A stretch of 64,000 nt of DNA, taken from Cyanophora paradoxa CCMP329. Its lineage: Eukaryota; Plantae; Glaucophyta. The translations under genes were made by a program, and so were the position numbers. The stretch spans positions 62,001 to 126,000 of the forward strand of contig QPMI01000408.1 of NCBI GenBank assembly GCA_004431415.1. Reading direction: 5' to 3'. The notes under the pieces were generated by a model. It was not told where the DNA came from and ran no database searches. It saw nothing but the letters and a program-made list of their open reading frames with translations. Shown piece after piece: positions 24,152 through 63,912 of the stretch (positions within the stretch are counted from its first letter, which is position 1; each line of letters starts with the position of its first letter).

Positions 24152-24993
24152 AAAAAAATGAGATAGTGGGGGTTCCAGCCCACCCACCTCTTTCTCACCC
24201 TCACTCCTCCAAACCACCCCAACCCACACACTCCAACGCCTTCCAACACACATTCTCTTCCATCCCTTCGTTACGTCTACCACCACAACCTCTCCAAACC
24301 AACCATCCAGCAACCGCTAGGTAGTATCTAACGTCTAGTCCGATCGATTTTGCAAAAGATATAGCAGTGATTTTAGGCGGACCCCAAAGCGCCGGTCTCA
24401 GAATAATCTTCAGATACAGCTAGACGTTAATTTTGTGTACTTTGAATCTAACAGAGAAAACATGTTTAGCTCAATTCTAGACGATATTAATGAGTACAAT
24501 GAAGCTAACAGAGGAAACACGTTTAGCTCAATTCTAGACGTTAATTGTGTGTATTTCGAAATGAGATAGTGGGGGTGCCAGCCCACCCCCCTCTTTCTCA
24601 CCCTCACTCCTCCAAACCCACCCCAACCCACCCACTCCAACGCCTTCCCAACCACCACTTCCGTCCACTCTCTCCTTACGTCTACCACCTTCCTCTCCCT
24701 CTGGTCTACCTCTCCTTCCAAACAGCAACCGCTAGGTAATATCCAACGTCTAGACCGATCGATCTTGCAAAAGATATAGCAATGATTTGAGGCGGACCCC
24801 CAAAGCGCCGGTCTCAGAATCATCTTCAACATCATTTAGACGTTAATTGTGTGTATTTCGAATCTAAAAAACAAAGAGGTTTCAAGGGTTATGCTACACG
24901 TAATTACTATATCATCGGAATCTAATTACATACTCGAGTTCAGGTTCTAGCTAGACGCTAATTATTCCCACCGATGACGTAGTCCAAGTTTAG
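24152..24993 (+). repeat. A2 left terminus with a duplicated TIR unit
   Basis: Two units starting ATGAGATAGTGGGGGT (~24158 and ~24561), separated by ~57-bp repeats containing GTTTAGCTCAATTCTAGACG. Confidence 0.85.
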
Positions 24994-25094
24994 GTTCAGG
25001 TTATAACTATGTCTTAGAGGTTTCAGCAACAATATAAAATGATATAAGAGATCGCGCTGATCAACCGAAATTTATTTCTAGCGACACTTTCAAA

Positions 25095-28000
25095 ATGAAT
25101 CAATTTGCTCGTCGTCGTCAGATAGCGTTATTAAAACAACAGATCGTAGGTCTAGCACAAACTTTGTATGAGCGTAGACGTATTCATGGACTATATCGAA
25201 ACAAATTACTCCGAATCTCATCACCAGGATCTCGAACTCGACTTGTGACGCTGCAACGAACTGTTGATGTGCTTTCAATGCTCGCTGCTGTAGTCGGACA
25301 AACGAGACGTGCCTCAGAGCGAACTGTGCAGATAATCATCGCTGAGAACCAAGCTGAACTGGTAGCACTTTTCAATGAACTCCCTGGACAGCCAAATGAG
25401 GAACTTGCTGGAGATGGTTCACGCGAGACGGCACTAGATGGAATATACGCACTCGAAAGCGCTGCGATCATCAGGCCGAACGGTCTAAGAGTTACATCGC
25501 TCGCGTCGTACATGGCGAACACCCCAGATTTCAAAGCAAAATTTGAGCGTTTCATAACTGAGCGATTGACTGCGGCGAATGAAACACGAATGGGGCTATC
25601 TATAAAGGTATATGCAAAAGGTATTTTTAAGCATAGGCAGAATGGCACAGAAGGTTTTACTAACCGCTTCAAAACAGATGAAATCAGTGAAGATCAATTC
25701 TACCGTATCCTCCCCGGTGCAAACATTGAAGTTGAGCTGCGTGACAGATGTGTTGAGATCGATGGAAGAGCTGAACAGGAGAATGACAGCTGGGAGTTAG
25801 AAACGTGGACGTATTTTTACATACAAAGTCTAGAACATGTCCGCGCCGTTGGTGGCGCATCATTTGAACTTCCATCATGGATTAGCAAGAAGAACGCAGT
25901 CATAAACGTGGAGGCACCAGATAATATGTGTTTTACGTATTCAGTTTTATCCGCAAAGTTCCCAGTCGATCGGCATGCTCAACGTGCTGCCAAGTACAGA
26001 GAGCACCTAAGTACGATCAACACATCAATGCTCAGTTATCCTGTCCCGCTTGATTCAAAGATATTCCGTCGGTTTGAAGAGGCAAACAATCTGAAGCTAT
26101 GCGTGTATGTGGCTGATAATGAAAAGCTAGATATCACTCCATATTATATTTCAGCGGCTCGAGATGCTATTCCTCTGCTATTCGTGACTGGCGAAGGTAG
26201 TTATGGCCACTTCGTTTGGATCAAGAACGTGAGTCGAATGTTTTCTCGTCCTGGAATTGACAAGAACGCACGCAGCTATTGTCTCGCTTGTCAAAAAGGA
26301 TTTCGCGGTGATGATGCTCTTCAGAAACACATCGAAGAAGACAGATGCCTCGAACGAGACGAACATGGCCGTGATGTGCTTCCAAAACCCGACCGTTCAA
26401 CATTGAAATTCCTGAACCATGCGAATACGATAACGGCACGATATGTTGGAGCCTATGATTTTGAAACACTTGCAATGTCTACGAACTCTGTGAAAAATGG
26501 AAAGACAGAGGAAATTGCATGTCAAATACCAGCTGCTGTTGGATGTTTGATCACAGGCAATGATGATACAAAATATTGGCACGTAAATAGCGGACGTAGA
26601 TGTGAGGAGAGGTTTGTTGAATGGCTAGATTCAATGGAACCAACTTTAAAGAAAGGGCTAAATGCATCGGTACAGCGATAAAAACAGATGTTGCAAAGCA
26701 AACGTTTGATTCAGCTACTAGTTGCTATATCTGTAACGTTGAATTCAGCGAGAAGATCAAAAAGGTTTGGGACCACGATCACGATAATGGTGATTTCAAA
26801 GGTGCTGCTTGTCCTGGCTGCAACCGTAGAAGATTCAAATCAAAACGTGTTTTCTTGATTGCTCACAATGCTCGAGGATTTGATTCGCATTTGCTGATCC
26901 GCGCAATTGCAAAGGGAAGTGTTCGTAGACATGCCGCACATATTGAATTTAAGAAAAAGTTGATTGAAAAACTTGGATCAGTCCGAACACGACTTGAGAA
27001 GACATATCAAAATCAAAGCGTGAGGAATGGACGATGAACAAACTGAGCATAAATGCTGAGGAGTATGAGAAACGAGTTCCAGGATTTATCAAGAACCAGC
27101 TTGTTAAAGAAAAAATCAAATTCGAGAGATCTGAGACACCGCTTTCAAATCGTTTCGAAGTGATGTTCCAAAACTCCGAGAAAATGAGTCAAATTGAGTA
27201 CGGCATTTACGTATTCCGCGACAGCATGCAACATCTATCAGCAACGCTCGAAAAGCTAGCGGCATCGCTTCCAGATGAACTGAAAAAGCAAACTCGCGAG
27301 TTATGTCCCGATGCGGAAACGTTTAATTTGATGACAAGAAAGGGCATCTATCCCTACAGCTACGTAAATTCCTGGCAGCGGCTTGCAGACCGTAAGCTAC
27401 CTCCGATAGAGGCGTTTCACAATGACTTGAAAAACGAAAAGTGCAAGCTTGAAGATTATGAGCACGCACAGAAGGTTTGGAAAAAGCTGAAATGTAAGAC
27501 AATGTTAGATTACACGATTGCTTATATGAAACTTGATATAACGTTACTATCAGATGTGTTTCAAGCGTATCGGGAAACATCTCGCGCTACAGATGGCATA
27601 GATCCTGCATATTACATGTCACTACCAGGCTTTAGTTGGGATGCTGCTCTAAAATATACAGGTGGGCAATTACAGCTGTTGCATGAGGGTCAAGAGGATA
27701 TGTTCAGATTCTTCGAGACAGGTATTCGTGGTGGTATTTCAATGGTGTCAAATCGATATGCAAAAGCGAACAATAAGGACATGGTTGATTATGATCCATC
27801 CAAACCATCAGTATATCTGTACTATATAGATGCAAATTCGTTGTATGGATATGCGATGTTAGAGAAACATCCGATTGGAGATTTTAAATGGGTTGATCCA
27901 GAAACCTTTGACCATGATGGTTTCGATTATGACGGTGATATAGGAGCAACGCTTGAAATTGATGCTTACATTCCAGATGAGCTTCACGAGAAATTTAATG

Positions 28001-29135
28001 ATTACCCGATTGCGCCAGTATCAATGATTGTAGATCCAACGATGCTATCTAGATCACAACAGGATATGATTAAAAAGGATTGCATTCAGATGAAGACGCG
28101 AAAGCTTATTCCAAGTCTGCTTCCATTGAAGAAATATGTTGTTGATGGGAGACTACTCAAATTTTACAGAAGTCAAGGTTTTGTGGTGAGTAAAATTCAT
28201 CGTGTTATTACGTACAAGCAGACTGCTTGGATGAAACCGTATGTGGAAAAAAATGCCGAAATGCGTCAGGCCGCAACCTTTGATCATGTGCGAGATCTAT
28301 TCAAACTCAAGACTAATGCATTATACGGCAAAAATATGGAAAACGTGAGAAAGCATTGCGATGCGGAGCTTGTGACTGATAGTGTCAGACTGTCAAAAAT
28401 TGCCGCACAACCAAATTTATTGAAGCAAATTGTCAAATATGATGAGGATCTTGTATTTATCTCTAAGCGGCGTTCACAAGTCAAATTAAACAAACCGATA
28501 TACAGTGGATTCAGTGTTTTGGAAATGTCAAAACTACACATGTTTAAAATGTATTACGAGCAACTAAAACCGCTCTGGGTCCGCGTGTTAAATTGCTTGC
28601 AACGGATACTGACTCGCTAATCCTTAGAATTGAGACAGATGATTTGTACGCTGATCTGAAAAATATAAGTCACCTTTTAGATGTTAGCAAATATCCGGAG
28701 TCACATCGATTCTTTGCAGGAATGTCGGACGAAGAAATTGCCACCATGAAGAAAGAATCGACAGCCCTTGGCAATTTCAAAGATGAGTGCAATGGTAAGC
28801 AAATGGTAGAATTCATCGCGAACAGACCTAAGAGTTATTGGTATCAGATCGACAGTGGTAAGCAAGAGCGTCGATGCAAGGGGATTTCTAAAAGCTTTGC
28901 CGACCAGCTTACACGGGAAAGATATATTGATTGTGTTCTTGGTAAAGTTGTAGATGGACAGAAACTATACTTATCATGTGAAGTGAATGGAATTCGAGGT
29001 ATGCGCTCAAAGAAACATCGTGTTTATGTGCAAGAAACCTCAAAACAGGCACTACATTCGCTAGATACAAAACGCTGGCTTTGCGATAATGGCGTAGAAA
29101 CAATGGCGCTTGGACATTGTCGCACTCGTATTTGA
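25095..29135 (+). pseudogene. Divergent protein-primed PolB, split into four ORFs by frameshifts
   Basis: YDFE, AHNARGFD, YIDANSLYG, KLKTNALYGK and TDTDS across ORFs 25095, 26621, 27034 and 28593. The breaks may be sequencing indels. Confidence 0.88.
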
Positions 29136-29456: not shown

Positions 29457-29554
29457 TACAATATCACTTTATTATTAATCATAATCACAATCTTTTTAAG
29501 GCATATTCACGCGATATCCACCAAAAACTTTTTATGTGTGTGACAATTAGAAGA

Positions 29555-30481
29555 ATGTACACGATAACAGCTCCACCGGGTGTCTGGCAAATTGATGTAT
29601 TATTTATTGGTAGGTATCGTCTGTTTGCAGCGGTCGAGATTGCAACCCGTTTCGCTATCGTGCGAAAAATAGAAACATTCAAACAACTTCCAAAAATGAT
29701 CGCGGAGCTACCAGGGATCTGGGGTTTCTCCGCCGACAACGGTTTTAACACAGCAGCAATTCGGGCAATGGCCGAAGAGAACTCGTTGAAAATGCACACT
29801 GATGTTACCAAAGATGACCACATTTCTAAAGGTAACAAACTTGGAATTATTGACAGGTTCGCTAGGACATTGCGAGCACTTATCCGAGCTGACACAGAAG
29901 CACGCGGATCACCACATTTCCTCTCACGCTTGCCTGCGATTTTGAAGGCGTACAATGAAACAGCACACAATGCATTTGGTGAAGAGCGATCACCAACGTG
30001 GATGCGTGAAAAAACACAGGTTGCCGAGCAGCTACATCAAGTTCGACAGCGACAGAACGATATTGAACGAGAGAACACAAATATGCCTAAACCAGGTTCG
30101 GAGGTGCAGATCCTTGAGCCTAAGCCAAGCGTGTTTGCAAAGGGTCTGGCGAAACCAAGCAAAGAGACCTACGTTGTTGCTGGCGTTGATAAGAACCGTG
30201 TTAGGTTAATTACAAAGCAAGGTGTGGAAATTTCTAGACGTGTTAAACCATCCGAGATTCGTGCGCCACAAGAACTACCTGACCAGTCTAAGATTGAAAG
30301 AGCGACTGCTAGATCGAAGCAAGATCGTCAGCTTCGGAGAGAGGGTCTCGTTGAAACGAAAACGTATGCGGGTCAAAACCGGAAGGATCGTGAGTTAAAA
30401 AAACTCGAAATTGCTGCTGAACCATTGCTCAGAGCAGGCGCCAAACCCGCTGGATATTACGCAAAGAGAATTCGAAGGTAG
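29555..30481 (+). CDS. rve integrase (A2)
   Basis: Close homolog of 7663-8565 starting MYTITAPPG, with a different C-terminal tail. Confidence 0.88.
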   Translation: MYTITAPPGVWQIDVLFIGRYRLFAAVEIATRFAIVRKIETFKQLPKMIAELPGIWGFSADNGFNTAAIRAMAEENSLKMHTDVTKDDHISKGNKLGIIDRFARTLRALIRADTEARGSPHFLSRLPAILKAYNETAHNAFGEERSPTWMREKTQVAEQLHQVRQRQNDIERENTNMPKPGSEVQILEPKPSVFAKGLAKPSKETYVVAGVDKNRVRLITKQGVEISRRVKPSEIRAPQELPDQSKIERATARSKQDRQLRREGLVETKTYAGQNRKDRELKKLEIAAEPLLRAGAKPAGYYAKRIRR

Positions 30482-30536: not shown

Positions 30537-30785
30537 ATGACCGATATCAACCTTCCGATATACGTTGCCTTTGCAATCCAGCAACACATTGAATATCTTC
30601 TACTGAAACATTGCCGGAGGAGAATCCACCGACCCACCAACCACTATGTCCGTGTTTCCTTTGACAAACGAACCGATAAATGGAAAGCAGAAACCAAAAT
30701 CAATGGTTGCAAGAAGATAATCGGTTATTATGATTCATTCGAAGATGCTTATAAAGATCAAACATCGAAATCACGGTTTAATTGA
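30537..30785 (+). CDS. Small AP2-domain-like protein
   Basis: YVRVSFDKRTDKWKAETKING.KKIIGYYDSFEDAY; occupies the HNH-AP2 slot. Confidence 0.65.
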   Translation: MTDINLPIYVAFAIQQHIEYLLLKHCRRRIHRPTNHYVRVSFDKRTDKWKAETKINGCKKIIGYYDSFEDAYKDQTSKSRFN

Positions 30786-30810
30786 AGGAATAACACCCTT
30801 TATCTTTTTG

Positions 30811-31179
30811 ATGGATATTGAAGATTTAGAAATATGTTGGCCGGGGAGATCACAACTTTCACCATGCCACTGCATCAGCTTCGGCATTTACAAGGGCGCA
30901 AGCTATTTGTGGATTGCCTCAGCTAAACCAGAATATACTAGTTGGTTGCTTAGACAAGATTGGTTGCCGGCTTTCGACCGGGCCGCTTTCTTGCGTGTAA
31001 AAAGCTTGATAGAGCCGAAAAATCTCCAGAAGATTTATCAACAGAGTAGACGCGGTCCACGGTCGCGGCTTCAAATATCAAAACCTGATACGAATGACCC
31101 CATTCAAGGAAAAGACGCATTAAAACTGCTCGACTCGCTCCGGCGTTGTATTCGGCAAAGACGCAATCGAACTCTTTAA
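30811..31179 (+). CDS. FG.YKG-motif small protein (A2 copy)
   Basis: Near-identical to 6304-6672. Confidence 0.5.
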   Translation: MDIEDLEICWPGRSQLSPCHCISFGIYKGASYLWIASAKPEYTSWLLRQDWLPAFDRAAFLRVKSLIEPKNLQKIYQQSRRGPRSRLQISKPDTNDPIQGKDALKLLDSLRRCIRQRRNRTL

Positions 31180-31652
31180 TATTCGATAGAATCGACGAAA
31201 AGCATACATATTCGCAATTTCGCCGAATCGTCGGACTAATGCCACATAGACGTTGTGTCGTGATAAAGAGCGATATATTGTAATGTCTTCCGCTAGTAAA
31301 AAGCTTTTGCATTAATCGGTCACTGTGGACGTTTACTAGGTCATTATCAAGCAAGTCATCTAAAACAATTGCTATTTTTCGATCATCTTTCTTGCGTCGT
31401 CTTTCTTTTGACGTTCTAAAAGTTCTTCAACCAAAACTGTATCCCATTCTTCATAAATATTGCTCTTGCGAGTGGTATCGTCCCACTGTTCTGTAAATGC
31501 CGTTGTGCTGAAGACGTAAATATCGTCTAGCTGATTTGCTACAGCATTTAATACGTGTTTTACGTAGGTGCTTTTGCCCGAGTTGGTGGGCCGACAAACA
31601 AGAACCGTTTAGGAAGTTTTACTTCTGCTGGATCAAACAATTTGATATCCAT
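30950..31652 (-). pseudogene. Packaging ATPase of A2 with two 1-bp homopolymer deletions
   Basis: 703 bp against 705 bp in A1; otherwise near-identical. Confidence 0.85.
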
Positions 31653-31653
31653 T

Positions 31654-32723
31654 TTAGAAGTTACTTACTTTTAGAGTCGACATTTGATATGAATTAATTA
31701 CGAGAACGTTGTGGCGCAGGACGTGAAAATCGACTACAGCTGGTGCGGTGTTTGTACATCCGGTGACAGTGAGGGAGCAGTAGCTGCTGCTTGAGTTGAA
31801 GAAGTCTGTGTAGCCGAGGACAGCGTTGTGGAGGGAGTCTTTGCCAGATTTCGAAAGCACAATACCATAGACATTTCCGTCTTCAAAACCAAGGGCTGAA
31901 TTACCAGTTGTTGCTCCGCGATATTGAGTTGGGATATGATAGCAGCTCGAAACAAATCCAGAGATTGGCTTATTACTGATATCGAGAGTGCGATTATTGT
32001 GCATGATCTCAAACGAATCAATCTTCAAAGCGTTACCGTTACCGGCAAATGAATTATGATTGCGAGTGCCCAGGTGATTCGCATTACGCACTGTCATCAG
32101 GATCGCGTGCACAAGGCCGCTAACGTTAGCAAGGGATATTTCGACAGCGTTTCCTGCGTCGTCCGTCTTAAGCTGGCGTGAGCGCTTTGAAATGATTTCA
32201 GTAAAGGGAATTCTAATACCGCCAGACTCGTTCGCAGATTTTAGCATAGACTCTGCCTCTTCGCTAGGAATATTCACGAACTGACAAACCAGGGCACAAT
32301 CCGTTAGAGTCGCAATAGCATCAGCAACAGTTCCAATCACACCAGCCGAACGGAAGTCAATCTCGACGGTTGGCATATCCGCAAGTGCTAGCAGAGGGAA
32401 ATATGAATTGTCCCAAAGCTGTGATGGGATCTTCAGCACGTACTCTCGGCTAGCATCGAGAATCTCTAGAGCTGCGTCTTTTCCAAAGCCGTAGCTGCTA
32501 GCAAAAGCTTGGGCGGATGCGACGCTGTTATCAATCAGTGCGTTCACTGTAAGCCAATCACCGGGAATTACCATTTTGAAAGATCCATGAACAAAGCGTA
32601 CGTTTTCAATAAATGCACCAGCACCATTAGGAAGAACCGAAGCGGCAGCTCCACCAGCGACTGTTACCTTAAAATATAGGGAGACGCCATTTAGAAGTTG
32701 CTTGCGCGGAAGGTCGAAAGCAG
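31654..32723 (-). pseudogene. A2 major capsid gene, 3' part (disrupted by B)
   Basis: With 50697-50861, minus the 5-bp TSD, it reconstitutes exactly the 1230-bp MCP gene. Confidence 0.93.
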
Positions 32724-33128
32724 AGCTCAGCACTGCGCCGTGTCTCCAAAAAAATACCCGCGAAAAAAATCAAAAACAAATCAGAAAACAAACCATTCCC
32801 AGTAACCCAATCTTGAATATCAGTAAATCTCAGTAAGCCTCAGTAACCAAAATTGAATTAATCGAAGTTATATCATAATCTCGATTAATTATATCTTATC
32901 GAAGTTATATCTTTTTTATGCGCCGTGTCTCCAAAACAATTCCCAAGAAAAACAAACCATTCCCAGTAACCCTATTCGTATTCAACAGTAATCTCAGTAA
33001 GCCTCAGTAACAAAAATCGAATTAATCGAAGTTATATCTTAAATCTTATTTATCGAAGTTATATCATAATCTCGATTAATTATATTTAATCGAAGTTATA
33101 TCCTTTTTATCCGCCAAGTCTCCCATGA
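32724..33128 (+). repeat. B left TIR
   Basis: Inverted copy of 50292-50696; two ~185-bp internal units with GAAGTTATATC and CAGTAA iterations. Confidence 0.93.
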
Positions 33129-33129
33129 A

Positions 33130-34191
33130 TTAGCGTTTGGTTAAACCACTTCTCAAATTGTATCTTCTCCTTACAACATTACTTCGATTGGGTTTTATGC
33201 CTTCCTTTGCTACCAATCGATTCACTTTATTCGTTTTATTAACCTGCTGAATTCGTTTTTGTGATGGGATCTTAATGATATCATCTTTATTCACCTTTTG
33301 CAATTCTTGTTTCTTAAATCTCCTCTTCACTTCTTTTGTTTCCTCACCATCATTATCTTCAAGGACTTTGAAACGATTCCTATCAGCCTTTGCAACAGTG
33401 TAGACCTTTTGACTGAATTGCGCACCTTCTTTTTCAAATAATCCCTTTGGTTGCAAAACTCGAACTGTGTCTCCTGGTTTCACTTGATTAGTATCAGCCT
33501 CCTTTACACGATTGTTGTGAACAGTATCCCTCATGTAAATAAATAACTGTTTATCTTCATTTGTATACACTGCATTCGGTGAGTCATTTTTCAATGCCGA
33601 ATGGGGACTGCTATTATACAAGTCAATTACATCACTAAGTAGATCGATCCATTTCGTGGTTCCTTTTGCTGTCATCGTTTTCCTGAGATATTGTTTGAAA
33701 GTCCTAGTGAACCTATCAATTATCCCCAGTTTATCTCCTACTGTGATGTGGTCATCCTTTGCCACATCTGTGTAAAGCATTACACCATGTTCACTGCACC
33801 AATTTCGGTATACTGCCTGGGAAAACTCATTATCCCCAGAGAGAGCATTAACTTTGCCTGCATCTTGCTTGAACCTATTTAAAATGCTCGGGATCTCACT
33901 GCTGTTTTTAAAAGGATAAACAAATCCTTTGCGACTAAGTATGTCTACGAAACTGAGCATTTTGAAAATGCCATTGTTGGCAGTCTGAAACCCTCTGAAA
34001 TATGTTATATCGATTTGAAACGATCTAGGCTTTGCTACTATGCGAAGAAACGATTTGGGTTTCCTTGGTTTCTTGTAGATTTGCTGGAGTTCTGAGTTTT
34101 TGAATTTCTTTTTCAACTCTTTTTCATCAAAACTCACTTTTTCATTAATCAGTTTCTGCCTATACTTTTTGAATGATAATACACTATCCAT
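33130..34191 (-). CDS. rve integrase (B)
   Basis: FQIDI, SGDNE, GIIDRFTRTFK, YNSSPHSAL. Confidence 0.9.
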   Translation of the reverse strand: MDSVLSFKKYRQKLINEKVSFDEKELKKKFKNSELQQIYKKPRKPKSFLRIVAKPRSFQIDITYFRGFQTANNGIFKMLSFVDILSRKGFVYPFKNSSEIPSILNRFKQDAGKVNALSGDNEFSQAVYRNWCSEHGVMLYTDVAKDDHITVGDKLGIIDRFTRTFKQYLRKTMTAKGTTKWIDLLSDVIDLYNSSPHSALKNDSPNAVYTNEDKQLFIYMRDTVHNNRVKEADTNQVKPGDTVRVLQPKGLFEKEGAQFSQKVYTVAKADRNRFKVLEDNDGEETKEVKRRFKKQELQKVNKDDIIKIPSQKRIQQVNKTNKVNRLVAKEGIKPNRSNVVRRRYNLRSGLTKR

Positions 34192-39866: not shown

Positions 39867-39902
39867 TTGTAATATCGAGACAAATTTATTCTACAGTATT
39901 TC

Positions 39903-50861: not shown

Positions 50862-50905
50862 TTGATATTATATTACAGAATATTTTCACGTATATTGTTG
50901 TAAAG

Positions 50906-51781: not shown

Positions 51782-51851
51782 ATTCACTTTCGCGAATGCG
51801 CAGCCGAGGCAGCTTGTCTGTCGACTTTTTTCTGTTCCTTATTTAAAACAA

Positions 51852-52880: not shown

Positions 52881-53710
52881 AAAAAAATGAGATAGTGGGG
52901 GTTCCAGCCCACCCACCTCTTTCTCACCCTCACTCCTCCAAACCACCCCAACCCACACACTCCAACGCCTTCCAACACACATTCTCTTCCATCCCTTCGT
53001 TACGTCTACCACCACAACCTCTCCAAACCAACCATCCAGCAACCGCTAGGTAGTATCTAACGTCTAGTCCGATCGATTTTGCAAAAGATATAGCAGTGAT
53101 TTTAGGCGGACCCCCAAAGCGCCGGTCTCAGAATAATCTTCAGATACAGCTAGACGTTAATTTTGTGTACTTTGAATCTAACAGAGAAAACATGTTTAGC
53201 TCAATTCTAGACGATATTAATGAGTACAATGAAGCTAACAGAGGAAACACGTTTAGCTCAATTCTAGACGTTAATTGTGTGTATTTCGAAATGAGATAGT
53301 GGGGGTGCCAGCCCACCCCCCTCTTTCTCACCCTCACTCCTCCAAACCACCCCAACCCACACACTCCAACGCCTTCCAACCAACACACTCTTCCAATCCT
53401 TCGTTACGTCTACCCCACAACCTATCCAAACCAACCATCAAGCAACCGCTAGGTAATATCCAACGTCTAGACCGATCGATCTTGCAAAAGATATAGCAAT
53501 GATTTGAGGCGGACCCCCAAAGCGCCGGTCTCGGAATAATCTTCAACATCATCTAGACGTTAATTGTGTGTATTTCGAATCTAAAAAACAAAGAGGTTTC
53601 AAGGGTTATGCTACACGTAATTACTATATCATCGGAATCTAATTACATACTCGAGTTCAGGTTCTAGCTAGACGCTAATTATTCCCACCGATGACGTAGT
53701 CCAAGTTTAG
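52881..53710 (+). repeat. A3 left terminus with a duplicated TIR unit
   Basis: Direct repeat of 24152-24993 except for a variant patch in unit 2. Confidence 0.88.
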
Positions 53711-54311
53711 TGAAACCACTTAACATTGGTTTGTATTCGATCGACGGCCCGACAGGATCAGCGCTGCTAGAGGCGATGCGCAAGATCGATGTGTTTGCTA
53801 CAGGTAATTCGCTAGCATTCTCATCCACCTCGGGGATTGCGACGATCGTCTTAGCAGGAACAGCAGATGATGGAGGAGAAAGCTTTTTATCAATTTTGGT
53901 CTTAGCAATCGGTTCGTTTAAAATCTTGTTTTCCATTTTAGTCTCAACCGCTATACCAGCAATAAGATCACCAGCACGCTTCTTTGAAATTGTTTTCAAC
54001 CCAGTCACTGTTTTAATGAAATATCTGCTACGATTACCAGTCTCTGATACATACAGCGGACCATCGTCAGTATCCTTCAGTTTACTAGTTTTGCTTTTCT
54101 TTGTCCGCGAATTTGGGATATTATCTAGAATAGCGTTTTCGTCGGCAGTAAGAGCAAAATCGATAGACGCACCCTCACCACCAGCAGTCCGACGAACTAA
54201 AGGATAGGATTCAGTATCACCGCTCAAAAATTCAATATTATTCTTTTTATTGGGTGAGTTTGTAAGTTTTCTAGAAGCCGAAGGCAAGTAGCCACTTGTG
54301 CTACGCACCAT
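53679..54311 (-). CDS. Candidate core protein (A3)
   Basis: Same protein as in A1. Confidence 0.7.
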   Translation of the reverse strand: MVRSTSGYLPSASRKLTNSPNKKNNIEFLSGDTESYPLVRRTAGGEGASIDFALTADENAILDNIPNSRTKKSKTSKLKDTDDGPLYVSETGNRSRYFIKTVTGLKTISKKRAGDLIAGIAVETKMENKILNEPIAKTKIDKKLSPPSSAVPAKTIVAIPEVDENASELPVANTSILRIASSSADPVGPSIEYKPMLSGFTKLGLRHRWE

Positions 54312-54381
54312 TTGTTTTAAATAAGGAACAGAAAAAAGTCGACAGACAAGCTGCCTCGGCTGCGCATTCGCGAAAGTGAAT

Positions 54382-55255
54382 TTAAGCAAAACTGCGATCA
54401 AACGGATGAAACTCACTATCTGTGTTTCTGATTGACGAGCGAAGTGATGCCTTTGTGTATGAAGAATCTTCAATTTCGAACTCGATAACGAATGAGAATT
54501 CAGTGTTAATAGCTGCAGTAAATCCATTAAAATAACGTATTGACACATCAAGTTGTTCTAACTCAGAATAATGATCGACGGAAACAGGAACACGTTCATC
54601 AGATGTATATTTGATAAGCTCTCCAAATTTCGCATCGATATGAATCTTTGCCAACGATGTGTTTGTCCAGTTATTTATTGTGTGAATCGAACCACGAATC
54701 TGATCGATATGTAGGAAGAGATAAGTATGATAAAGAAGATCAACAGGTATATCGCCAACGATAGCAAACGCATAATCAACAGCATCAACTGTGATTGGAG
54801 TATCCAGCTGTTCTGCGGAATCTGTAACAGCCTTTGTGAAGCCGAGCAGATTTGCGAGTTCAAGTGGAAAACGTCAGAGTAAACTCCGATTCACACAAGA
54901 TTGTGATTTTCATTGAAACATCATCAAAAACCGTTAAGAACTTGCGTTGGTAAGTACTCCCCAAATAACTGTATTGTTGTGTTTTCAAAAGAACGTTCAT
55001 ATAATTCGTAAGAGATGTTGGAGTATATGATCCAGCTCGAAATAGGTTCGTTCTGGTTTTAATTACATTGCTAGGATCGAGCGTAATGGTTGTTATTGAA
55101 GCATCAGCAGCTAGATTATACATATTGTGAAAAAGTTCTAGCGATTCAATTCTAGCCGACTTCACGTTTGCTAACGCCCGAGGCAGATTAATTTTGAAAT
55201 TCGAGGACGTGCCTTCGAACCGATCTCTAGAATCAACATTTACGCGGAGTTTCAT
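54382..55255 (-). pseudogene. Minor capsid gene of A3 with a 2-bp deletion
   Basis: CAAGTGG at ~54861 against CAAGAGTGG in A1. Confidence 0.8.
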
Positions 55256-55299
55256 CTTTACAACAATATACGTGAAAATATTCTGTAATATAATATCAA

Positions 55300-56529
55300 A
55301 TGGCGCAAGCAGGAACTACTCTGAAAGAGCTCCTAACAACCAAAGGATCGAACGAGCTTTATCTATCGCCAGGTCTAACTGTCGGTGTTAGCCCAAAGTT
55401 TAAGCCTTTCCTTGAGACGATCCGTCCGCGAGGCAACTCATACGGATTCGCACAGACTGCTGCTTTCGACCTTCCGCGCAAGCAACTTCTAAATGGCGTC
55501 TCCCTATATTTTAAGGTAACAGTCGCTGGTGGAGCTGCCGCTTCGGTTCTTCCTAATGGTGCTGGTGCATTTATTGAAAACGTACGCTTTGTTCATGGAT
55601 CTTTCAAAATGGTAATTCCCGGTGATTGGCTTACAGTGAACGCACTGATTGATAACAGCGTCGCATCCGCCCAAGCTTTTGCTAGCAGCTACGGCTTTGG
55701 AAAAGACGCAGCTCTAGAGATTCTCGATGCTAGCCGAGAGTACGTGCTGAAGATCCCATCACAGCTTTGGGACAATTCATATTTCCCTCTGCTAGCACTT
55801 GCGGATATGCCAACCGTCGAGATTGACTTCCGTTCGGCTGGTGTGATTGGAACTGTTGCTGATGCTATTGCGACTCTAACGGATTGTGCCCTGGTTTGTC
55901 AGTTCGTGAATATTCCTAGCGAAGAGGCAGAGTCTATGCTAAAATCTGCGAACGAGTCTGGCGGTATTAGAATTCCCTTTACTGAAATCATTTCAAAGCG
56001 CTCACGCCAGCTTAAGACGGACGACGCAGGAAACGCTGTCGAAATATCCCTTGCTAACGTTAGCGGCCTTGTGCACGCGATCCTGATGACAGTGCGTAAT
56101 GCGAATCACCTGGGCACTCGCAATCATAATTCATTTGCCGGTAACGGTAACGCTTTGAAGATTGATTCGTTTGAGATCATGCACAATAATCGCACTCTCG
56201 ATATCAGTAATAAGCCAATCTCTGGATTTGTTTCGAGCTGCTATCATATCCCAACTCAATATCGCGGAGCAACAACTGGTAATTCAGCCCTTGGTTTTGA
56301 AGACGGAAATGTCTATGGTATTGTGCTTTCGAAATCTGGCAAAGACTCCCTCCACAACGCTGTCCTCGGCTACACAGACTTCTTCAACTCAAGCAGCAGC
56401 TACTGCTCCCTCACTGTCACCGGATGTACAAACACCGCACCAGCTGTAGTCGATTTTCACGTCCTGCGCCACAACGTTCTCGTAATTAATTCATATCAAA
56501 TGTCGACTCTAAAAGTAAGTAACTTCTAA
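55300..56529 (+). CDS. Putative major capsid protein (A3)
   Basis: Near-identical to 4598-5827. Confidence 0.8.
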   Translation: MAQAGTTLKELLTTKGSNELYLSPGLTVGVSPKFKPFLETIRPRGNSYGFAQTAAFDLPRKQLLNGVSLYFKVTVAGGAAASVLPNGAGAFIENVRFVHGSFKMVIPGDWLTVNALIDNSVASAQAFASSYGFGKDAALEILDASREYVLKIPSQLWDNSYFPLLALADMPTVEIDFRSAGVIGTVADAIATLTDCALVCQFVNIPSEEAESMLKSANESGGIRIPFTEIISKRSRQLKTDDAGNAVEISLANVSGLVHAILMTVRNANHLGTRNHNSFAGNGNALKIDSFEIMHNNRTLDISNKPISGFVSSCYHIPTQYRGATTGNSALGFEDGNVYGIVLSKSGKDSLHNAVLGYTDFFNSSSSYCSLTVTGCTNTAPAVVDFHVLRHNVLVINSYQMSTLKVSNF

Positions 56530-56530
56530 A

Positions 56531-57235
56531 ATGGATATCAAATTGTTTGATCCAGCAGAAGTAAAACTTCCTAAACGGTTCTTGTTTGTCGGCCCCACCA
56601 ACTCGGGCAAAAGCACCTACGTAAAACACGTATTAAATGCTGTAGCAAATCAGCTAGACGATATTTACGTCTTCAGCACAACGGCATTTACAGAACAGTG
56701 GGACGATACCACTCACAAGAGCAATATTTATGAAGAATGGGATACAGTTTTGGTTGAAGAACTTTTAGAACGTCAAAAAGAAAGACGACGCAAGAAAGAT
56801 GATCGAAAAATAGCAATTGTTTTAGATGACTTGCTTGATAATGACCTAGTAAACGTCCACAGTGACCGATTAATGCAAAAGCTTTTTACTAGCGGAAGAC
56901 ATTACAATATATCGCTCTTTATCACGACACAACGTCTATGTGGCATTAGTCCGACGATTCGGCGAAATTGCGAATATGTATGCTTTTCGTCGATTCTATC
57001 GAATATTAAAGAGTTCGATTGCGTCTTTGCCGAATACAACGCCGGAGCGAGTCGAGCAGTTTTAATGCGTCTTTTCCTTGAATGGGGTCATTCGTATCAG
57101 GTTTTGATATTTGAAGCCGCGACCGTGGACCGCGTCTACTCTGTTGATAAATCTTCTGGAGATTTTTCGGTTCTATCAAGCTTTTTACACGCAAGAAAGC
57201 GGCCCGGTCGAAAGCCGGCAACCAATCTTGTCTAA
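56531..57235 (+). CDS. Packaging ATPase (A3)
   Basis: Near-identical to 5829-6533. Confidence 0.93.
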   Translation: MDIKLFDPAEVKLPKRFLFVGPTNSGKSTYVKHVLNAVANQLDDIYVFSTTAFTEQWDDTTHKSNIYEEWDTVLVEELLERQKERRRKKDDRKIAIVLDDLLDNDLVNVHSDRLMQKLFTSGRHYNISLFITTQRLCGISPTIRRNCEYVCFSSILSNIKEFDCVFAEYNAGASRAVLMRLFLEWGHSYQVLIFEAATVDRVYSVDKSSGDFSVLSSFLHARKRPGRKPATNLV

Positions 57236-57374: not shown

Positions 57375-57403
57375 CAAAAAGATAAAGGGTGTTATTCCTT
57401 CAA

Positions 57404-57940
57404 TTAAACCTGTGGAAAGTTCAGACGCAAGAACAGTTTGTCTGCTTCAGAAGTATTCTCCAAGACATATGCATCACGAGCACGAGCAGCTTCTTCTGCA
57501 GTTGAGAAATAGCCAACGTGCTTCAGGCGACCATTTATTTTATAATGCGCCTGCCATTTACCACACTGCTGATCGAAGCTAACACCTATGAATCCACTCG
57601 AGTTATTTCGCCGCCGATTCTGGTTGAGCTGCTGCTGACGAGCAGTTGCCACACGGAGATTTTCACGTCTGTTATCCAGTTTGTTCAGATTTATATGATC
57701 AACTGTCAATCCGTTTTCGAGTTCACCCGAGATATAGTTATGCAAAAACACATTCTTTCTATTGATCGTGGTTCGAGCATATCCATAGTTATTTAAACGC
57801 CAGCGAAATCCAAGCATACGCTCAGCGTCATCCTGCGACACAAGTGCATAGGCAACTACGACTCCATATCGACCATTCCTACGACCAGTAATTGGAATTA
57901 GAGCAACACCTTCAGGGACATCAGGAATTGCGACCTCCAT
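57404..57940 (-). CDS. HNH-AP2 protein (divergent allele)
   Basis: Same motifs as 6702-7235 with many substitutions. Confidence 0.92.
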   Translation of the reverse strand: MEVAIPDVPEGVALIPITGRRNGRYGVVVAYALVSQDDAERMLGFRWRLNNYGYARTTINRKNVFLHNYISGELENGLTVDHINLNKLDNRRENLRVATARQQQLNQNRRRNNSSGFIGVSFDQQCGKWQAHYKINGRLKHVGYFSTAEEAARARDAYVLENTSEADKLFLRLNFPQV

Positions 57941-58051
57941 ATTTCTTCTTTTTCGTTACATTTACAGATTGCATTATCTTTAAGCCTAAAAAGTCGCGCT
58001 AATTTGTTATAAAAGGATTTATGTCTCATATTATTGAGACATAAGCGAACA

Positions 58052-58360
58052 ATGAGTTCTGCAGATTATACTGCTGTAAAGCGTGGCCGTGGACGTCCGC
58101 CAAAGGTTCGTCTTTTGACAATGGATTCATATGAACCAAAGAAGAAGGGTCGTAAGCCAATAGAGGTAACACCGGAGATTTTAGCAGAGCGACGCAGAAA
58201 GAATGCTGAACGGAATCGTAAACTACGTCATACGAACGAAACATATCGTTTGAAACAGCTTGCCATCACAGCAAAATATCGAGCTGAAAATCCTGATCGT
58301 ATTCGGGAGTACCACAGAAATGCTATTTCGCGTAGATGTCTTGCTAAAGACGTTGCTTAG
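58052..58360 (+). CDS. AT-hook basic protein (A3)
   Basis: As 7371-7679. Confidence 0.7.
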   Translation: MSSADYTAVKRGRGRPPKVRLLTMDSYEPKKKGRKPIEVTPEILAERRRKNAERNRKLRHTNETYRLKQLAITAKYRAENPDRIREYHRNAISRRCLAKDVA

Positions 58361-59246
58361 CACCAGCTCTAAGCTTTGGCTCTCCTGCAATCTCAAGCTT
58401 CTTGAGCTCTCGATCCTTCCGGTTTTGGCCGCTGTATTTTTTCGTTTCGATCAATCCCTCGCGTCTCAATCGTCTCTGCTGTCGCATTTTCACTTCTTCT
58501 TTTTCGATTCGTGTTTGATCAGGGAGATCACGAGGTTGACGTATTTCAGATGGTTTAACACGCCTAGAAATTTCCACACCTTGCTTTGTAATTAACCTAA
58601 CGCGGTTCTTATCAGCGCCAGCAACTATGTACGTCTCTTTGCTTGGTTTTGCCAGACCCTTCGCAAAAACACTGCTCTTTGGCTCAAGGATCTGCACCTC
58701 CGTGCCAGGTTTAGGCATATTTGTGTTCTCTCGTTCAATATCGTTCTGTCGCTGTCGCACTTGGTGAAGCTGTTCGGCAACCTGTGTATTTTCACGCATC
58801 CACGTTGGTGATCGCTCCTCGCCAAATGCACTGTGGGCTGTCTCATTGTACGCCTTGACAATTGCCGGCAAACGTGAGAGGAAATGCGGTGATCCACGTG
58901 CTTCAGTGTCAGCTTGGATAAGTGCTCGCAATGTCCTAGCGAACCTGTCGATAATTCCAAGTTTGTTACCTTTAGAAATGTGGTCATCTTTGGCAACATC
59001 AGTGTGTATTTTCAACGAGTTCTCTTCGACCATTGCCCGAATCGCAGCTGTGTTAAAACCGTTGTCGGCGGAGAAACCCCAGATCCCTGGCAGTTGCTCA
59101 ATCATTTTTGGAAGTTGTTTGAATGTTTCTATTTTTCGAACGATAGCGAAACGGGTTGCAATTTCTACGGCCGCAAACAGGCGATATCTCCCAATAAATA
59201 ATACATCAATTTGCCATGCACCAGGTGGCGCTGTTAGAGTGTACAT
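58344..59246 (-). CDS. rve integrase (A3)
   Basis: As 7663-8565. Confidence 0.88.
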   Translation of the reverse strand: MYTLTAPPGAWQIDVLFIGRYRLFAAVEIATRFAIVRKIETFKQLPKMIEQLPGIWGFSADNGFNTAAIRAMVEENSLKIHTDVAKDDHISKGNKLGIIDRFARTLRALIQADTEARGSPHFLSRLPAIVKAYNETAHSAFGEERSPTWMRENTQVAEQLHQVRQRQNDIERENTNMPKPGTEVQILEPKSSVFAKGLAKPSKETYIVAGADKNRVRLITKQGVEISRRVKPSEIRQPRDLPDQTRIEKEEVKMRQQRRLRREGLIETKKYSGQNRKDRELKKLEIAGEPKLRAGAKQRL

Positions 59247-59255
59247 CCTTATTAT

Positions 59256-62200
59256 TCAGACACGATTTTTGTAATGCCCAATAGCCCAGGTGTTGATTTT
59301 ATCATTATCTAGAAAACGCTTCGTATCTAGCGGATGCAACGCTTGACGAGAGGTATTTTGCAGATATATTTCATGTCGTTTCGAACGGAAACCGAGAATT
59401 CCTTTGATATCATACGATTGTTTTTCTCCTTTTTTTGGGCAGACACACCGGAGGAATACATCCCTTGTGAGTCTGTTGTAATATGTTTTTTGAATACCTT
59501 TGCACACCTGCTTATCTGTGGAATCTTCACGCGAATAATAGTAAGATTTCGGCCGGTTAGCGATCCACTCTGTCATTTGTAGACCATGAAGCTCATCCTT
59601 GAATAATCCCGGAGTTTTCCCCATCGATCGTAGAGCTCGAACCTCATCGGCTGTCATGCCATCAAAGAATCGATGTGTCTCTGGGTAGTCGCTAACATCC
59701 AGCTCATGCTTGATTGAGCGTAAATCAGCATAGATATCTTTGGTGCGAACCTCGATGATGAGACTGTCAGTATCAGTTCCAAGTAGCTTAAGCCGATGAC
59801 CCCAAAGCGGTTTGAGCACCTGATAGTAGAAGCGATACATGTGCAGCTTGGACAATTCGAGAATGACAAATCCACAGTAAATTGGTTTATTTAAATTATA
59901 CTCACTTTTTCGCTTGGAAACGAATACAAGGTTCTCTTCGTACATCACCACCTGCTTCAACCGATTTGGTTCGCTGTTTATCTTTGCCAAACGATCACCA
60001 GATGTAACAAGCTCGGAGAAACAGTGTTTTCTCACGTTCTCCATCGTCTTTCCGAATACACTGTTATTCATTAACTTGAAGAGATCCTGTTTGTATTTGT
60101 GATCAGCACGCTTGCGTTCACTTGTATTAAGATCGATGAAATCGTTCAGCCACGCACTTTGTTCGTACGATAAAACACGGTGGATGTTGGTTACAATCAT
60201 TCCCAGTGTAGTATAAAGCTTAAGCAAACGCCCATCAACAACATAATTCTTCTTTGGCAACAGGTTTGGAACCAATTTTGGGGTTCTTTCGACTGAAGTA
60301 AGCTTTTCGTTGTTAATCATATCCTGCTGTTGTTTCGATAGATGATCTATGGACACGCACATTCGTTCAGGAGCTAGTGGATAATCTGAGAAATCATCGT
60401 GGAGATGGTCAGGCATGTACATATCAACTTCTAGAGCATAGCCACGAGGACCATCAGCGTCAAGGTTTTCAACGAACTGCATAGCATCAACATCTTGATC
60501 GAGTTTTTCCCAGCGGAAACCTCCAGTGGGGAGTTTTTGTTTCATAGCAACGCCATACAGATTATTCGCATCAAGGTACATCAGCCACGATTCTTTGCCT
60601 GTTTTTTCGTAGTTTTGCACACATTCAATCTGGGTTGCTGATTCATCAGCATGCGTATATTTTCCAAATTTCTTTAAAATTGTCGCTGCTTTTGCTGCTT
60701 TCTTTTTATTCTTTGCAATCACTCTTGAACTCATGTCTTTTACGTGTTTCAGGAACTCGTTATCAGCTTTAGCGTATCTCTTTGATATCATGCTGATGCC
60801 ACCCTAATTCCTGATTCTATGAATCTATACATATCTTGTTGTCCCTCGTGAAAAAGCTCAAGCTTAATTCCTGTGCGTTTAAGAGCAGCTTGCCAAGCGA
60901 ATCCTGGTGATGATATGAAATAGCTTGGATCTAATCCATACGTTTCCATGCATGTATCACGATAGTTTTCAAATACATCGGCAAGTAACGAAATGTCAGT
61001 ATTCATATATTCCATAGTATAGTCTGATATCGTTCTACATGCAAGCTTTCTCCAAACGATCTGAGCATGTGCGTACTCGTCTTTTGAGCATTTCTTTTGT
61101 TTTAGTTCGTTCTTAAAGTATCGACGTACAGGTAGTTCTGTTTCTTGAAAACGTTGCCAGCTTGATATATAGCTATATGGATATATCCCCTTGCTTGTCA
61201 TCAACTCGAATCTAGTATCATCCGGATACATTGTGCGCGTGATCTTCTTCTTCTCCGCTGGGACCGCTTTCGCTAGATCATCCAAACTAGCATTCAAATG
61301 TTGCATCGAATCACGAAGTACATAAATTCCATACTTAAACTGTGATATCTTCTCGCTATTCTGAAAGGTTTGATCAAATTTGATCGAAAGGAGACTCTGC
61401 GGGCGGAGCCGGCGTTCGAGCCCCTTCTTAACCTTCTTTTTCTGCTCTGGGGTCATCTCACGTCCACCGTACTTGCTTTGAAACTCACTTTCGACATGTG
61501 CTTGAAACTCAGCCCAAGCTGCTGAACGGCGGTTTTTGCCAGATGCTATTGCTCTCACGAACAGGTGAAAGTCAAATCCACGACCATTATGAAAGAATAT
61601 AGGAACAGCAGCAGATTTTGCACGGCGGCGATTGCAAGCACGACAGGCTGCTCCAATGTATTTACCTGTATCATGACAGTGATCACGGTGCTTGTCTTTG
61701 ATATCTTTGAACGTGTTTTTGCACATATAACAGTCTGTCGTTGTTTGAAAACACTGTTCCTCTTCCGGATTCATCTGGATTGGTACACTTGCTTTGAGAA
61801 GTTCTCTAAATTGTGGTTCCATTTCGTCAAGCCATTTTACGAACTTATCAGCACAGTCTTCATTCTCGGAACCCATACATTTAAATGAAAACTGTTCGCC
61901 TTTCGAAGATACAACCAGACAGCCGACTGAAGCAATCACATGCAAACCTTTTTTTTCGGTCTTTCCACTAATGCAGGGAATCGGCAATGTAATAGTCTCT
62001 GAATCAGCATATCCGACCAGACGTTGGCGGATTGTGTACTCATAGTTAATAAACTTCTGGATGTGAGCTCCTTTTTTGGGCAGAACATCTCGTGCGTGTT
62101 CATCGCGTTCGAGACAGCGGTCATATTTAAGATGATTTTCAAATGCTTGATCTGAGCTAAAACCGACCTGGCAGGCTAAGCAATAGTGCTTTGCATTTGA

Positions 62201-63382
62201 TTCGTTCTTTCGGAACAGTCGTGAGACGCTCTTAATCCAGAGGTAATGCCCAACATCGTTTCCCTCCCCAGCCGGCACATACAGTATTGGGATTGCGTCT
62301 CTCGCAGCACTGATATGGATTGGTATGATATCCTGCTTATCTAGAGCAGTTGTATAAACGCAGAGTTTGACGTTATTTGCTTGCTCGAATTTGGTGAACA
62401 TCCTCGAGTCAAGCGGTGTCGGATATGTAAGCATTGAGCAGTCCAGCGATGTCTCGTGCTGGCGGTAGTTCCCTGCATGCCGAGAATCAACACCTTCGCC
62501 CAATGGATTGCGAGCAGAAAGGACTGCGTATTTAAAGCACTCGTTGTTCGGTGCATTTATATTGATAAGCGCGTGCTTGTCTGAGAGCCATTTTGGCAGT
62601 ACAAAGCCTCGGCCACGGCCACCAATCCTTCGGAAATAGCGCACAGTTTTAAAGACCAGATACACCCACGTGTCAAATACTGAGGAATCCCTGCTTTTCT
62701 CTTCCGAGATCATGTCTAATTCTTCGAGCTGTGAACGCAAGGCCGCCTCAATGCTTGTCCCTGGTTCGATGCGATCGAAACGACGATGTTCAATAACGAT
62801 AGCGATCGTAGAATCTGTCTCTGGCTTTCTGTAGACACCCAATCCAGAGATTTGTAGTGCAATGCCCATTCTTGACGTCTCTGCAAGATTTACCTGGGCG
62901 CTTACGAATGATATAGCATTCTGTTTGAAAAGTTCGTTGTTTTCAAATCTGGCTTGCATTGATGTTACACGTCCTGATCCGCGTGGTAGCTGATATTTCC
63001 ACTCTGCATATCGCCCGTCAAGCGCTGTAGTCGTAGTCCCGTCGTTGATTTGAACATCATCTCCGACGTCAACCTCAGGCAGCTCGGCAAAGCCACGGAC
63101 GATCTCTGCCTGCCCCTCTGCGATCGCTAGCTCTAGTCGACGACCTGACACAGGACGCGTTGGTCTAGGAAGTCGAGATAGTTCGTTCAATAGTGAAGCG
63201 TATTTTTCCAACGTTGTATATCTTGTTCTCGATCCTTGCGCTGTAATTCTTAGCAATTTATTTTTGAAAGCACCATGTATGACACGTAGATTGTACAATG
63301 AAGTCGTGAGCGCTTCGATCTGGTCTTTAATACGGGCTGACCGGAAGCGCCGAGTCGCTGCATTATTCTGGGTAACGTCCAT
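59256..63382 (-). CDS. Protein-primed PolB (A3), with a 1-bp homopolymer frameshift near 60802
   Basis: Same motifs as A1; CCC where A1 has CCCC in the GIRGG codons. Confidence 0.92.
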
Positions 63383-63485
63383 TGGAAGTATATATCACAA
63401 TTTTTTTGATTATTTTAAACGCAACTTTACATAGCAATATTGGATAGAGATCTCTTTAAGACAAAATAAGATAAACCACCTGAAC

Positions 63486-63912
63486 CTAAACTTGGACTAC
63501 GTCATCGGTGGGAATAATTAGCGTCTAGCTAGAACCTGAACTCGAGTATGTAATTAGATTCCGATGATATAGTAATTACGTGTAGCATAACCCTTGAAAC
63601 CTCTTTGTTTTTTAGATTCGAAATACACACAATTAACGTCTAGATGATGTTGAAGATTATTCCGAGACCGGCGCTTTGGGGGTCCGCCTCAAATCATTGC
63701 TATATCTTTTGCAAGATCGATCGGTCTAGACGTTGGATATTACCTAGCGGTTGCTTGATGGTTGGTTTGGATAGGTTGTGGGGTAGACGTAACGAAGGAT
63801 TGGAAGAGTGTGTTGGTTGGAAGGCGTTGGAGTGTGTGGGTTGGGGTGGTTTGGAGGAGTGAGGGTGGTGAAGAGGTGCGGGCCACAGAATCAGGTCCTC
63901 TCTCATTTTTTT
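63486..63912 (-). repeat. A3 right TIR
   Basis: Inverted relative to the inner unit of the left terminus; the outermost ~45 bp differ. Confidence 0.9.

What the first reader, a model, noticed from the sequence alone, without database searches (positions are those of the whole stretch)
24152..63912. Core inversion: same asymmetric termini, opposite gene orientation
Seen: A2 and A3 both start with the long L end (A7-TGAGATAGTGGGGG, duplicated unit) and finish with the R end (CAGAATCAGGTCCTCTCTCA-T7/8), so the termini are direct repeats. Yet L adjoins pPolB in A2 and the capsid block in A3. Inference: recombination or template switching between the shared inner TIR segments flips the core, giving genome isomers.
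Basis: partly seen in the sequence, partly recalled or inferred. Interest (0 to 1): 0.75.

Follow-up and report, generated by a model that had tools for sequence, protein, structure and literature searches.

The report
Fused Polinton-like virus pair, swapped tips
Two related virus-like elements sit fused end to end under one insertion scar in a eukaryotic microbe's genome, and their mismatched ends most likely come from a single swap between the pair's mirror-image halves rather than from a virus that routinely flips its genes.

Summary
The anatomy is real. A2 (24152-52879) and A3 (52881-63912) both run L...R, with pPolB next to L in A2 and the capsid block next to L in A3. They are not plain isomers. 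Neither has its own target-site duplication; one 6-bp TSD flanks the pair, which splits a Ty3 ORF, so the dimer is one insertion. A2's pPolB is only 40-53% identical in protein to A1's (A1 and A3 are 96.7% alike in DNA), while the A2 and A3 capsid arms form a 4.1-kb near-perfect palindrome around a 494-bp spacer made of the R and L tips. Turning that spacer gives two elements with like tips (R...R, L...L), the form seen in neighbours A1 and B. A3's L end switches once, in an 18-bp window, from A2-type to R-type. Best reading (0.55): two symmetric Polinton-like viruses joined capsid end to capsid end, then one inter-arm exchange swapped their inner tips. A heritable L/R family with an invertible core (0.17), free L-R recombinants (0.13) and mis-assembly (0.15) stay open. 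No whole genome or long reads were available, and short-read contigs do not decide it.

The parts
2548..13256 (.). A1: complete Polinton-like element of the same family, symmetric 459-bp TIRs (third tip type, S), own 6-bp TSD CCCCGA
24146..24151 (+). left copy of the 6-bp TSD GCCGGT of the A2+A3 dimer, inside a Ty3 gag-region ORF
24152..24993 (+). A2 L end: outer unit, nested second unit with a divergent patch (type z, 24617-24836)
25095..29135 (+). A2 replication module: 142-aa-ORF homologue and pPolB with endonuclease-VII insert, in four ORF pieces, 40-53% aa identity to A1 pPolB
29534..30481 (+). A2 rve-like integrase, 87.5% aa to A1's
30772..32723 (-). A2 capsid arm, outer part (ATPase with two homopolymer frameshifts, most of MCP); inverted copy of 55460-57414
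32724..50696 (.). element B inserted in A2's MCP gene: 409-bp TIRs, 5-bp TSD AGCAG, own MCP (63% aa to A1), ATPase, integrase-like ORF, 1357-aa SF1-helicase protein
50697..52834 (-). A2 capsid arm, inner part plus inner TIR (type y); inverted copy of 53329-55464 with 1 SNP and one 2-bp indel
52835..53328 (.). 494-bp central spacer: R tip, T7+T+A7 end-to-end joint (52873-52887), L outer unit and head of the second unit; proposed inverted segment
53329..53346 (+). 18-bp window where A3's L end switches from A2-L type (20 of 20 outer informative columns) to R type (42 of 42 inner columns)
53679..57235 (.). A3 capsid block: 289-aa ORF, 291-aa ORF (frameshifted), double-jelly-roll MCP (55300-56529 +), A32 ATPase (56531-57235 +)
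57404..63382 (-). A3 HNH-AP2 endonuclease, integrase, pPolB (one frameshift)
63486..63912 (-). A3 R end, identical to A2's R end over 427 bp
63913..63918 (+). right copy of the TSD GCCGGT
13710..24151 (-). GC-rich Ty3/Gypsy retrotransposon ORFs (integrase, RT-RNase H, gag-region ORFs) that host the dimer

Best explanation
A2 and A3 are two Polinton-like virus genomes fused capsid end to capsid end and inserted under a single 6-bp target duplication; they likely began as ordinary symmetric elements (L...L with one polymerase module, R...R with another), and one exchange between their inverted capsid arms likely turned the 0.5-kb central piece and swapped their inner tips. Inferred steps: (1) blunt end-joining of two co-replicating linear genomes at their T7/A7 ends; (2) integration of the dimer by the rve-like integrase using one L and one R end; (3) a crossover or template switch between the 4.1-kb inverted arms, which inverts the spacer and, in the template-switch form, also copies A3's arm and inner TIR over A2's. 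Steps 2 and 3 could be in either order. B inserted after the arms had become nearly identical. A2 and A3 are thus the two reciprocal recombinants of an LL and an RR parent, still joined.
For: One TSD around the pair, none around A2 or A3 alone for 4-8 bp; chance of the hexamer about 8e-4; the host ORF stays in frame on both sides of it. Like tips pair across the spacer: R with R 427 of 427 bp, L with L over the outer 466 bp with one homopolymer indel. The two other complete elements in the window are symmetric (A1 459 bp 99.8%, B 409 bp 99.3%). A3's L end is a single-switch chimera: 20 of 20 outer informative columns follow A2's L, 42 of 42 inner ones follow R. Arms differ at 3 SNPs and 3 indels in 4.09 kb, against 8 and 11 SNPs to A1; A2 has no private SNP. 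Each polymerase keeps its own outer end type (pol' with L/z, pol with R/y). Template switching is reported to homogenise IR arms and invert the spacer, for short IRs (abstract of PMC8604942). Tandem polisuvirus pairs with identical morphogenic genes and different replicases are described (section 13 of bioRxiv 10.64898/2026.10.13.758929).
Against: No L...L or R...R monomer was seen: no genome is held and the collection scans found no relative. The outer ends of the integrated unit are still L and R. Turning the spacer leaves A2 imperfect: its two inner units differ at 38 columns of a 220-bp patch, so either one switch fell in an 18-bp window or the L parent already carried that patch. In four short-read runs L and R tips have depths of the same order (R/L 1.92, 1.24, 1.49, 0.98), which fits L/R pairing as well. 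End-joining of protein-capped linear genomes is assumed, not shown. The cited template-switch work concerns short repeats in yeast, not kilobase arms.
Confidence: 0.55

Rival explanations
1. One reading: L and R are fixed left and right termini of a heritable asymmetric family, the core inverts through the shared inner TIR, and the locus is a head-to-tail L...R|L...R piece of a concatemer or a circle captured by crossover; A2 then received pol' and the z patch by a module swap.
For: R|L is the joint that a circle or concatemer of an L...R monomer would give. A3's inner TIRs are 382 of 382 bp identical under mismatched tips. The integrated unit has one L and one R outer end. L and R tip depths are of the same order in 4 of 4 runs laid. 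L is a terminus elsewhere too: loose ends before 52881 in 5 contigs of X1 and 4 of X3.
Against: Needs asymmetric monomers plus inversion, joining and a module swap. No asymmetric monomer with its own TSD in the window; A1 and B are symmetric. The cores are not the same sequence (pPolB 40-53% aa). The window's R allele has about 2 units of depth in X1 and X3 and none in X2 and X17, a weak hint that it is confined to this locus; the tool warns that depth is no copy number. Papers read describe PLV and virophage ends as TIR pairs (passages).
Confidence: 0.17
2. LL and RR genomes recombined as free molecules, giving transient L-cap-pol-R and R-cap-pol'-L monomers, two of which were then end-joined and integrated; no exchange inside the dimer.
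For: The family is strongly mosaic: A1 and A3 are 99-100% alike in most bins but 81-87% over HNH and the pPolB N-terminal region; A1's S end has an R-like tip on an L-like body.
Against: Does not explain why exactly the two reciprocal products are joined, at their capsid ends, with arms closer to each other than to A1.
Confidence: 0.13
3. Assembly artefact: the true locus is L...L|R...R and the assembler turned the spacer or mixed the arms of the palindrome.
For: A 2.1-kb-arm palindrome with a 0.5-kb loop is hard to assemble (general knowledge). The frameshifting indels checked in A2 and A3 lie in homopolymer or dinucleotide runs, typical of long-read consensus error. No piece listed bridges the joint (32 of 329 pieces shown).
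Against: A read of about 2.5 kb from B into the spacer fixes the orientation. A simple mis-join in the arms would leave the z patch on A3's L end if the L parent was fully symmetric; it is absent. A pure fold-back chimera is excluded: the spacer is asymmetric, B is on one arm only, and the polymerases differ.
Confidence: 0.15

Closest known systems
Polinton-like viruses / polisuviruses with pPolB and rve-type integrase (PMC12220804, PMC10120064; passages read)
   Same: pPolB, rve-like integrase, A32 ATPase, double-jelly-roll MCP, TIRs of several hundred bp, 6-bp TSD, low GC in a GC-rich host, nested insertions.
   Different: Small (10.7 kb); MCP has only 4 relatives at E<=0.001 among 1.84 billion representatives, 21-26% identical; the dimer shares one TSD and has unlike tips on each unit.
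Tandem mosaic polisuvirus pairs (bioRxiv 10.64898/2026.10.13.758929, section 13 read; figures and supplements not seen)
   Same: Tandem integration; one contig with nucleotide-identical morphogenic genes and distinct replicases; endonuclease genes near module borders.
   Different: The text gives no inverted orientation, shared TSD or tip exchange ('inversion' 0, 'orientation' 0 hits). Both replicases here are pPolBs. Whether this locus is among their figure examples could not be seen; the text descriptions do not match it.
HSV genome isomers (PMC8954253, passages read)
   Same: Inversion of a segment between inverted repeats; end-to-end joints.
   Different: HSV isomers hold the same unique sequences and are about equimolar in reads (76, 102, 82, 74); here one locus, different replication modules, no population evidence.
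Inverted-repeat template switching (PMC8604942, abstract read)
   Same: Arm homogenisation with spacer inversion in one event.
   Different: Described for short repeats; here arms of 2-4 kb and a 494-bp spacer.
EMALE virophages of Cafeteria (PMC8547959, passages read)
   Same: Module swaps between elements, nesting with retrotransposons, TIRs regenerated after truncation.
   Different: Mavirus-type capsid; no inversion mentioned (0 hits).

Membership tests
Polinton-like virus (Polisuviricotina) | double-jelly-roll major capsid protein | tested here: met
   Atlas features 0.98 to Capsid_N/Capsid_NCLDV clusters; model pLDDT 69.6 matches PBCV-1 capsid at E 1.7e-18, TMq 0.70
Polinton-like virus (Polisuviricotina) | A32-like packaging ATPase | tested here: met
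   PF04665 E 1.9e-11 (A1), 1.5e-15 (B)
Polinton-like virus (Polisuviricotina) | protein-primed family B polymerase | tested here: met
   PF03175 E 1.9e-14 on an A2 piece, 4.4e-5 on an A3 piece; A1 pPolB 37-41% to many PF03175 proteins
Polinton-like virus (Polisuviricotina) | rve-type integrase | tested here: inconclusive
   PF00665 only E 0.0078 (A2), PF13683 E 0.0041 (B), both under cut-off; 6-bp TSDs fit an rve integrase (PMC12220804 passage)
Polinton-like virus (Polisuviricotina) | terminal inverted repeats and 5-6-bp TSD | tested here: met
   A1: 459-bp TIR and 6-bp TSD; dimer: 6-bp TSD, inner TIRs shared, tips unlike
Polinton-like virus (Polisuviricotina) | minor capsid (penton) protein | tested here: inconclusive
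   291-aa ORF is a candidate by position; no Pfam hit; no Atlas result obtained
canonical Maverick/Polinton | adenoviral-type maturation protease (recalled as a core gene) | tested here: not met
   no protease family among the eight main A1 ORFs scanned; remote homologues could be missed
HSV-type isomerising genome | inverted repeats bracket the invertible segment | tested here: met
   inner TIR of 382 bp in A3; 4.09-kb arms around the spacer
HSV-type isomerising genome | same unique sequence in both orientations | tested here: not met
   A2 and A3 share only the capsid arm; pPolB 40-53% aa, HNH absent from A2
HSV-type isomerising genome | both isomers common among molecules or copies | not testable with these tools

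The most novel reading that the evidence does not exclude
A protein-primed Polinton-like virus family with stably unlike left and right termini whose gene core flips between them and which integrates as inverted concatemers, a herpesvirus-like isomer system in a small integrating virus; or, close to it, head-to-head dimers act as the working intermediate in which termini and polymerase modules are reassorted.
Probability: 0.2. Interest if true: 0.72.

Novelty: new variant of a known kind. Interest (0 to 1): 0.45.

Why it matters
It is a snapshot of how small integrating DNA viruses trade parts: two genomes with nearly identical capsid genes, different polymerases and different tips, joined under one scar. 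It shows directly that a 21-kb dimer with unlike outer ends can be the inserted unit, and it suggests a concrete route (end-joining, then inter-arm exchange) to the replicase and terminus mosaicism that surveys report without a mechanism. It also warns that TIR-based element finders would mis-call or miss such units. If the L/R asymmetry proved heritable, it would challenge the assumption that protein-primed genomes keep identical ends.

Tried and rejected
Separate insertions of A2 and A3, or A3 inserted at A2's end: rejected, no 4-8-bp duplication flanks either alone and the right T tract is not lengthened. A2 as a pure isomer of A3: rejected. Fold-back read chimera: rejected (asymmetric spacer, B on one arm, different polymerases). 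Whole-genome census: no genome held. Relatives with flanks: none in viral contigs or metagenome contigs; the 6-sequence alignment had no conserved stretch to search with; word-based homologue search of the MCP found none among 7995 candidates. Short-read contigs (4 of 21 runs listed were laid) break at the repeats; depth ratios scaled to a z-patch marker (L about 5.2-5.8, other R allele 5.7-7.8, window R allele 2.4, 0, 1.9, 0; L unit joint 3.4, 1.4, 3.1, 1.6) are inconsistent between runs and decide nothing; the runs may be one strain. Whether reads bridge the R|L joint is left open. Earlier scan notes: nothing. Literature: no paper held all of isomers/TIR/protein-primed/inversion/linear genome; listings showed no report of unlike termini or end-swapped dimers in Polintons or PLVs; this is a limited library.
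Full report
Layout. Self-comparison, ORFs and Pfam show three AT-rich (about 42% GC) elements of one family in GC-rich DNA. A1 (2548-13256) encodes a 289-aa and a 291-aa ORF, a 409-aa protein, an A32 ATPase, an HNH-AP2 endonuclease, an integrase-like ORF, a 1234-aa pPolB with an endonuclease-VII insert and a 142-aa ORF. The 409-aa protein is a double-jelly-roll capsid protein (Atlas 0.98; model against PBCV-1 capsid E 1.7e-18) with only 4 distant relatives among 1.84 billion representatives. A3 (52881-63912) is colinear with A1 at 96.65% over 10.2 kb. A2 (24152-52879) runs the other way and is interrupted in its capsid gene by B (32724-50696, 409-bp TIRs, 5-bp TSD). The RT region of the surrounding Ty3 element is 100% identical over 471 aa to an EukProt protein (P0125), so the host is a eukaryote, most likely a GC-rich microbe; a species guess from memory was not verified.

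Observation. Confirmed. L ends match over 843 bp (95.5%) and R ends over 427 bp (100%) as direct repeats. L adjoins the polymerase module in A2 and the capsid block in A3. Within each unit the tips agree at 36 of 53 aligned columns over the first 50 bases, against 49 of 51 in A1 and 50 of 50 in B (the A1 figure includes a one-base offset of my coordinates).

One insertion, not two. A1 has its own 6-bp TSD. A2 and A3 have none individually for 4-8 bp; one hexamer flanks the pair (chance about 8e-4 from flank composition), and the Ty3 ORF is open in the matching frame on both sides. The joint is T7, one extra T, A7, with no host bases; the extra T is within homopolymer error.

Not plain isomers. 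A2's polymerase pieces are 40.5, 53.2, 49.4 and 48.7% identical in protein to A1's, its integrase 87.5%, and it lacks the HNH gene. Homology with A3 stops at 30772/57414, at the 3' end of HNH. The capsid arms, with B set aside, are inverted copies over 4.09 kb with 3 SNPs and 3 indels, against 8 SNPs (A1-A2) and 11 (A1-A3); all three SNPs are private to A3. The innermost 1241 bp are perfect.

The centre can be read two ways. Between the arms lie 494 bp: R tip, joint, L outer unit, head of L's second unit. Turning this piece gives R...R for A3 (427 of 427 bp) and L...L for A2 (outer 466 bp with one homopolymer indel, then 38 differing columns in a 220-bp patch). Among 62 columns where A2's L second unit and R differ, A3's L follows A2 at the outer 20 and R at the inner 42, with one switch between 53328 and 53347. 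This is what one template switch between inverted arms would leave: inverted spacer, one arm copied from the other (abstract of PMC8604942, for short repeats). Counting events, symmetric parents need a join and an exchange; the asymmetric model needs asymmetric monomers, an inversion, a join and a module swap. Symmetric ends are what A1 and B show and what the PLV and virophage papers describe (passages). ITRs are the replication origins in adenovirus (passage, PMC9863843); that panhandle repair would quickly equalise unlike tips is recalled, not read.

Outside evidence. No genome is held. Twenty of 21 listed runs hold the stretch, all as short-read contigs of one organism; four were laid on 52760-53400. 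L and R tips are multicopy, and L abuts other sequence in 5 contigs of X1 and 4 of X3, so L is a terminus elsewhere. Contigs break at the repeats, 32 of 329 pieces were shown, and none of those bridges the joint. R/L depth ratios of 1.92, 1.24, 1.49 and 0.98 neither require nor exclude pairing, and the window's R allele shows about two marker units in X1 and X3 and none in X2 and X17; the tool states that depth is no copy number, so these are hints in both directions. Collection scans found no relative with flanks.

Comparison. The elements work like, and meet the tested features of, pPolB-type Polinton-like viruses; the integrase call is weak and no protease was found, so I do not file them as canonical Mavericks. 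Tandem integration and pairs with identical morphogenic genes but different replicases are already described (bioRxiv 10.64898/2026.10.13.758929, passages and section 13; figures and supplements not seen and may bear on novelty). Module swaps are known from EMALEs (PMC8547959, passages). HSV isomers (PMC8954253, passages) keep the same unique sequences and are about equimolar; the first feature is not met here and the second could not be tested. PMC8502044 (passages and section 10) and bioRxiv 10.64898/2026.06.19.733378 (passages) added nothing on termini. Searches (listings) showed no report of an inverted PLV dimer under one TSD with exchanged tips.

Verdict. Shown: the L...R|L...R anatomy, the single TSD, the palindromic capsid arms, the different polymerase modules, the single switch in A3's L end. 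Inferred: symmetric parents, end-joining, inter-arm exchange (0.55). Rivals: heritable asymmetric family with invertible core 0.17, mis-assembly 0.15, free L-R recombinants 0.13. New variant of a known kind; interest 0.45.

Noticed in passing
window 32724-50696: Element B shares the capsid lineage (MCP 63% aa to A1) but has a 1357-aa protein with a C-terminal SF1 helicase and PolB-like motifs seen by eye, a 5-bp TSD instead of 6, and TIRs built of nested repeats of their own terminal unit, as in L.
   Followed up: partly
window 43640-49900: GC-rich inserts inside B: a 350-bp direct repeat (43640-43989, 46063-46411, 99.7%) without TG...CA ends or an obvious TSD, and a 147-bp x 8.4 tandem array (47741-48978).
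   Followed up: no
window 30535-30771 and 57404-57940: A2 carries what reads by eye as an AP2-domain remnant where A1 and A3 have HNH-AP2; A2/A3 homology ends at this gene's 3' end, and A1 and A3 HNH differ (86% aa) inside 99.7% DNA, a hint of endonuclease-linked module exchange.
   Followed up: partly
window 2975-3006, 53679-53710: The inner TIR includes the last ten or so codons of the capsid-side 289-aa ORF, so the polymerase-side TIR was probably copied from the capsid end.
   Followed up: partly
window 2548-2800: A1's S end has an R-like outer 40 bp on a body 99.5% identical to L's outer unit: tips and TIR bodies reassort among at least three end types.
   Followed up: partly
window 4598-5827: The capsid protein has no close relative in the protein collections searched (best E 4.6e-22, 26% identity): possibly an undescribed MCP lineage.
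   Followed up: partly
window 2548-63912: Four Polinton-like elements in 61 kb, in and beside one Ty3 retrotransposon and inside each other: an insertion hot spot.
   Followed up: no
window 53046-53257: Short-read contigs show further TIR subtypes branching at 53128 and 53257, some deeper than the window's own form, so the family has more end variants than this window shows.
   Followed up: no
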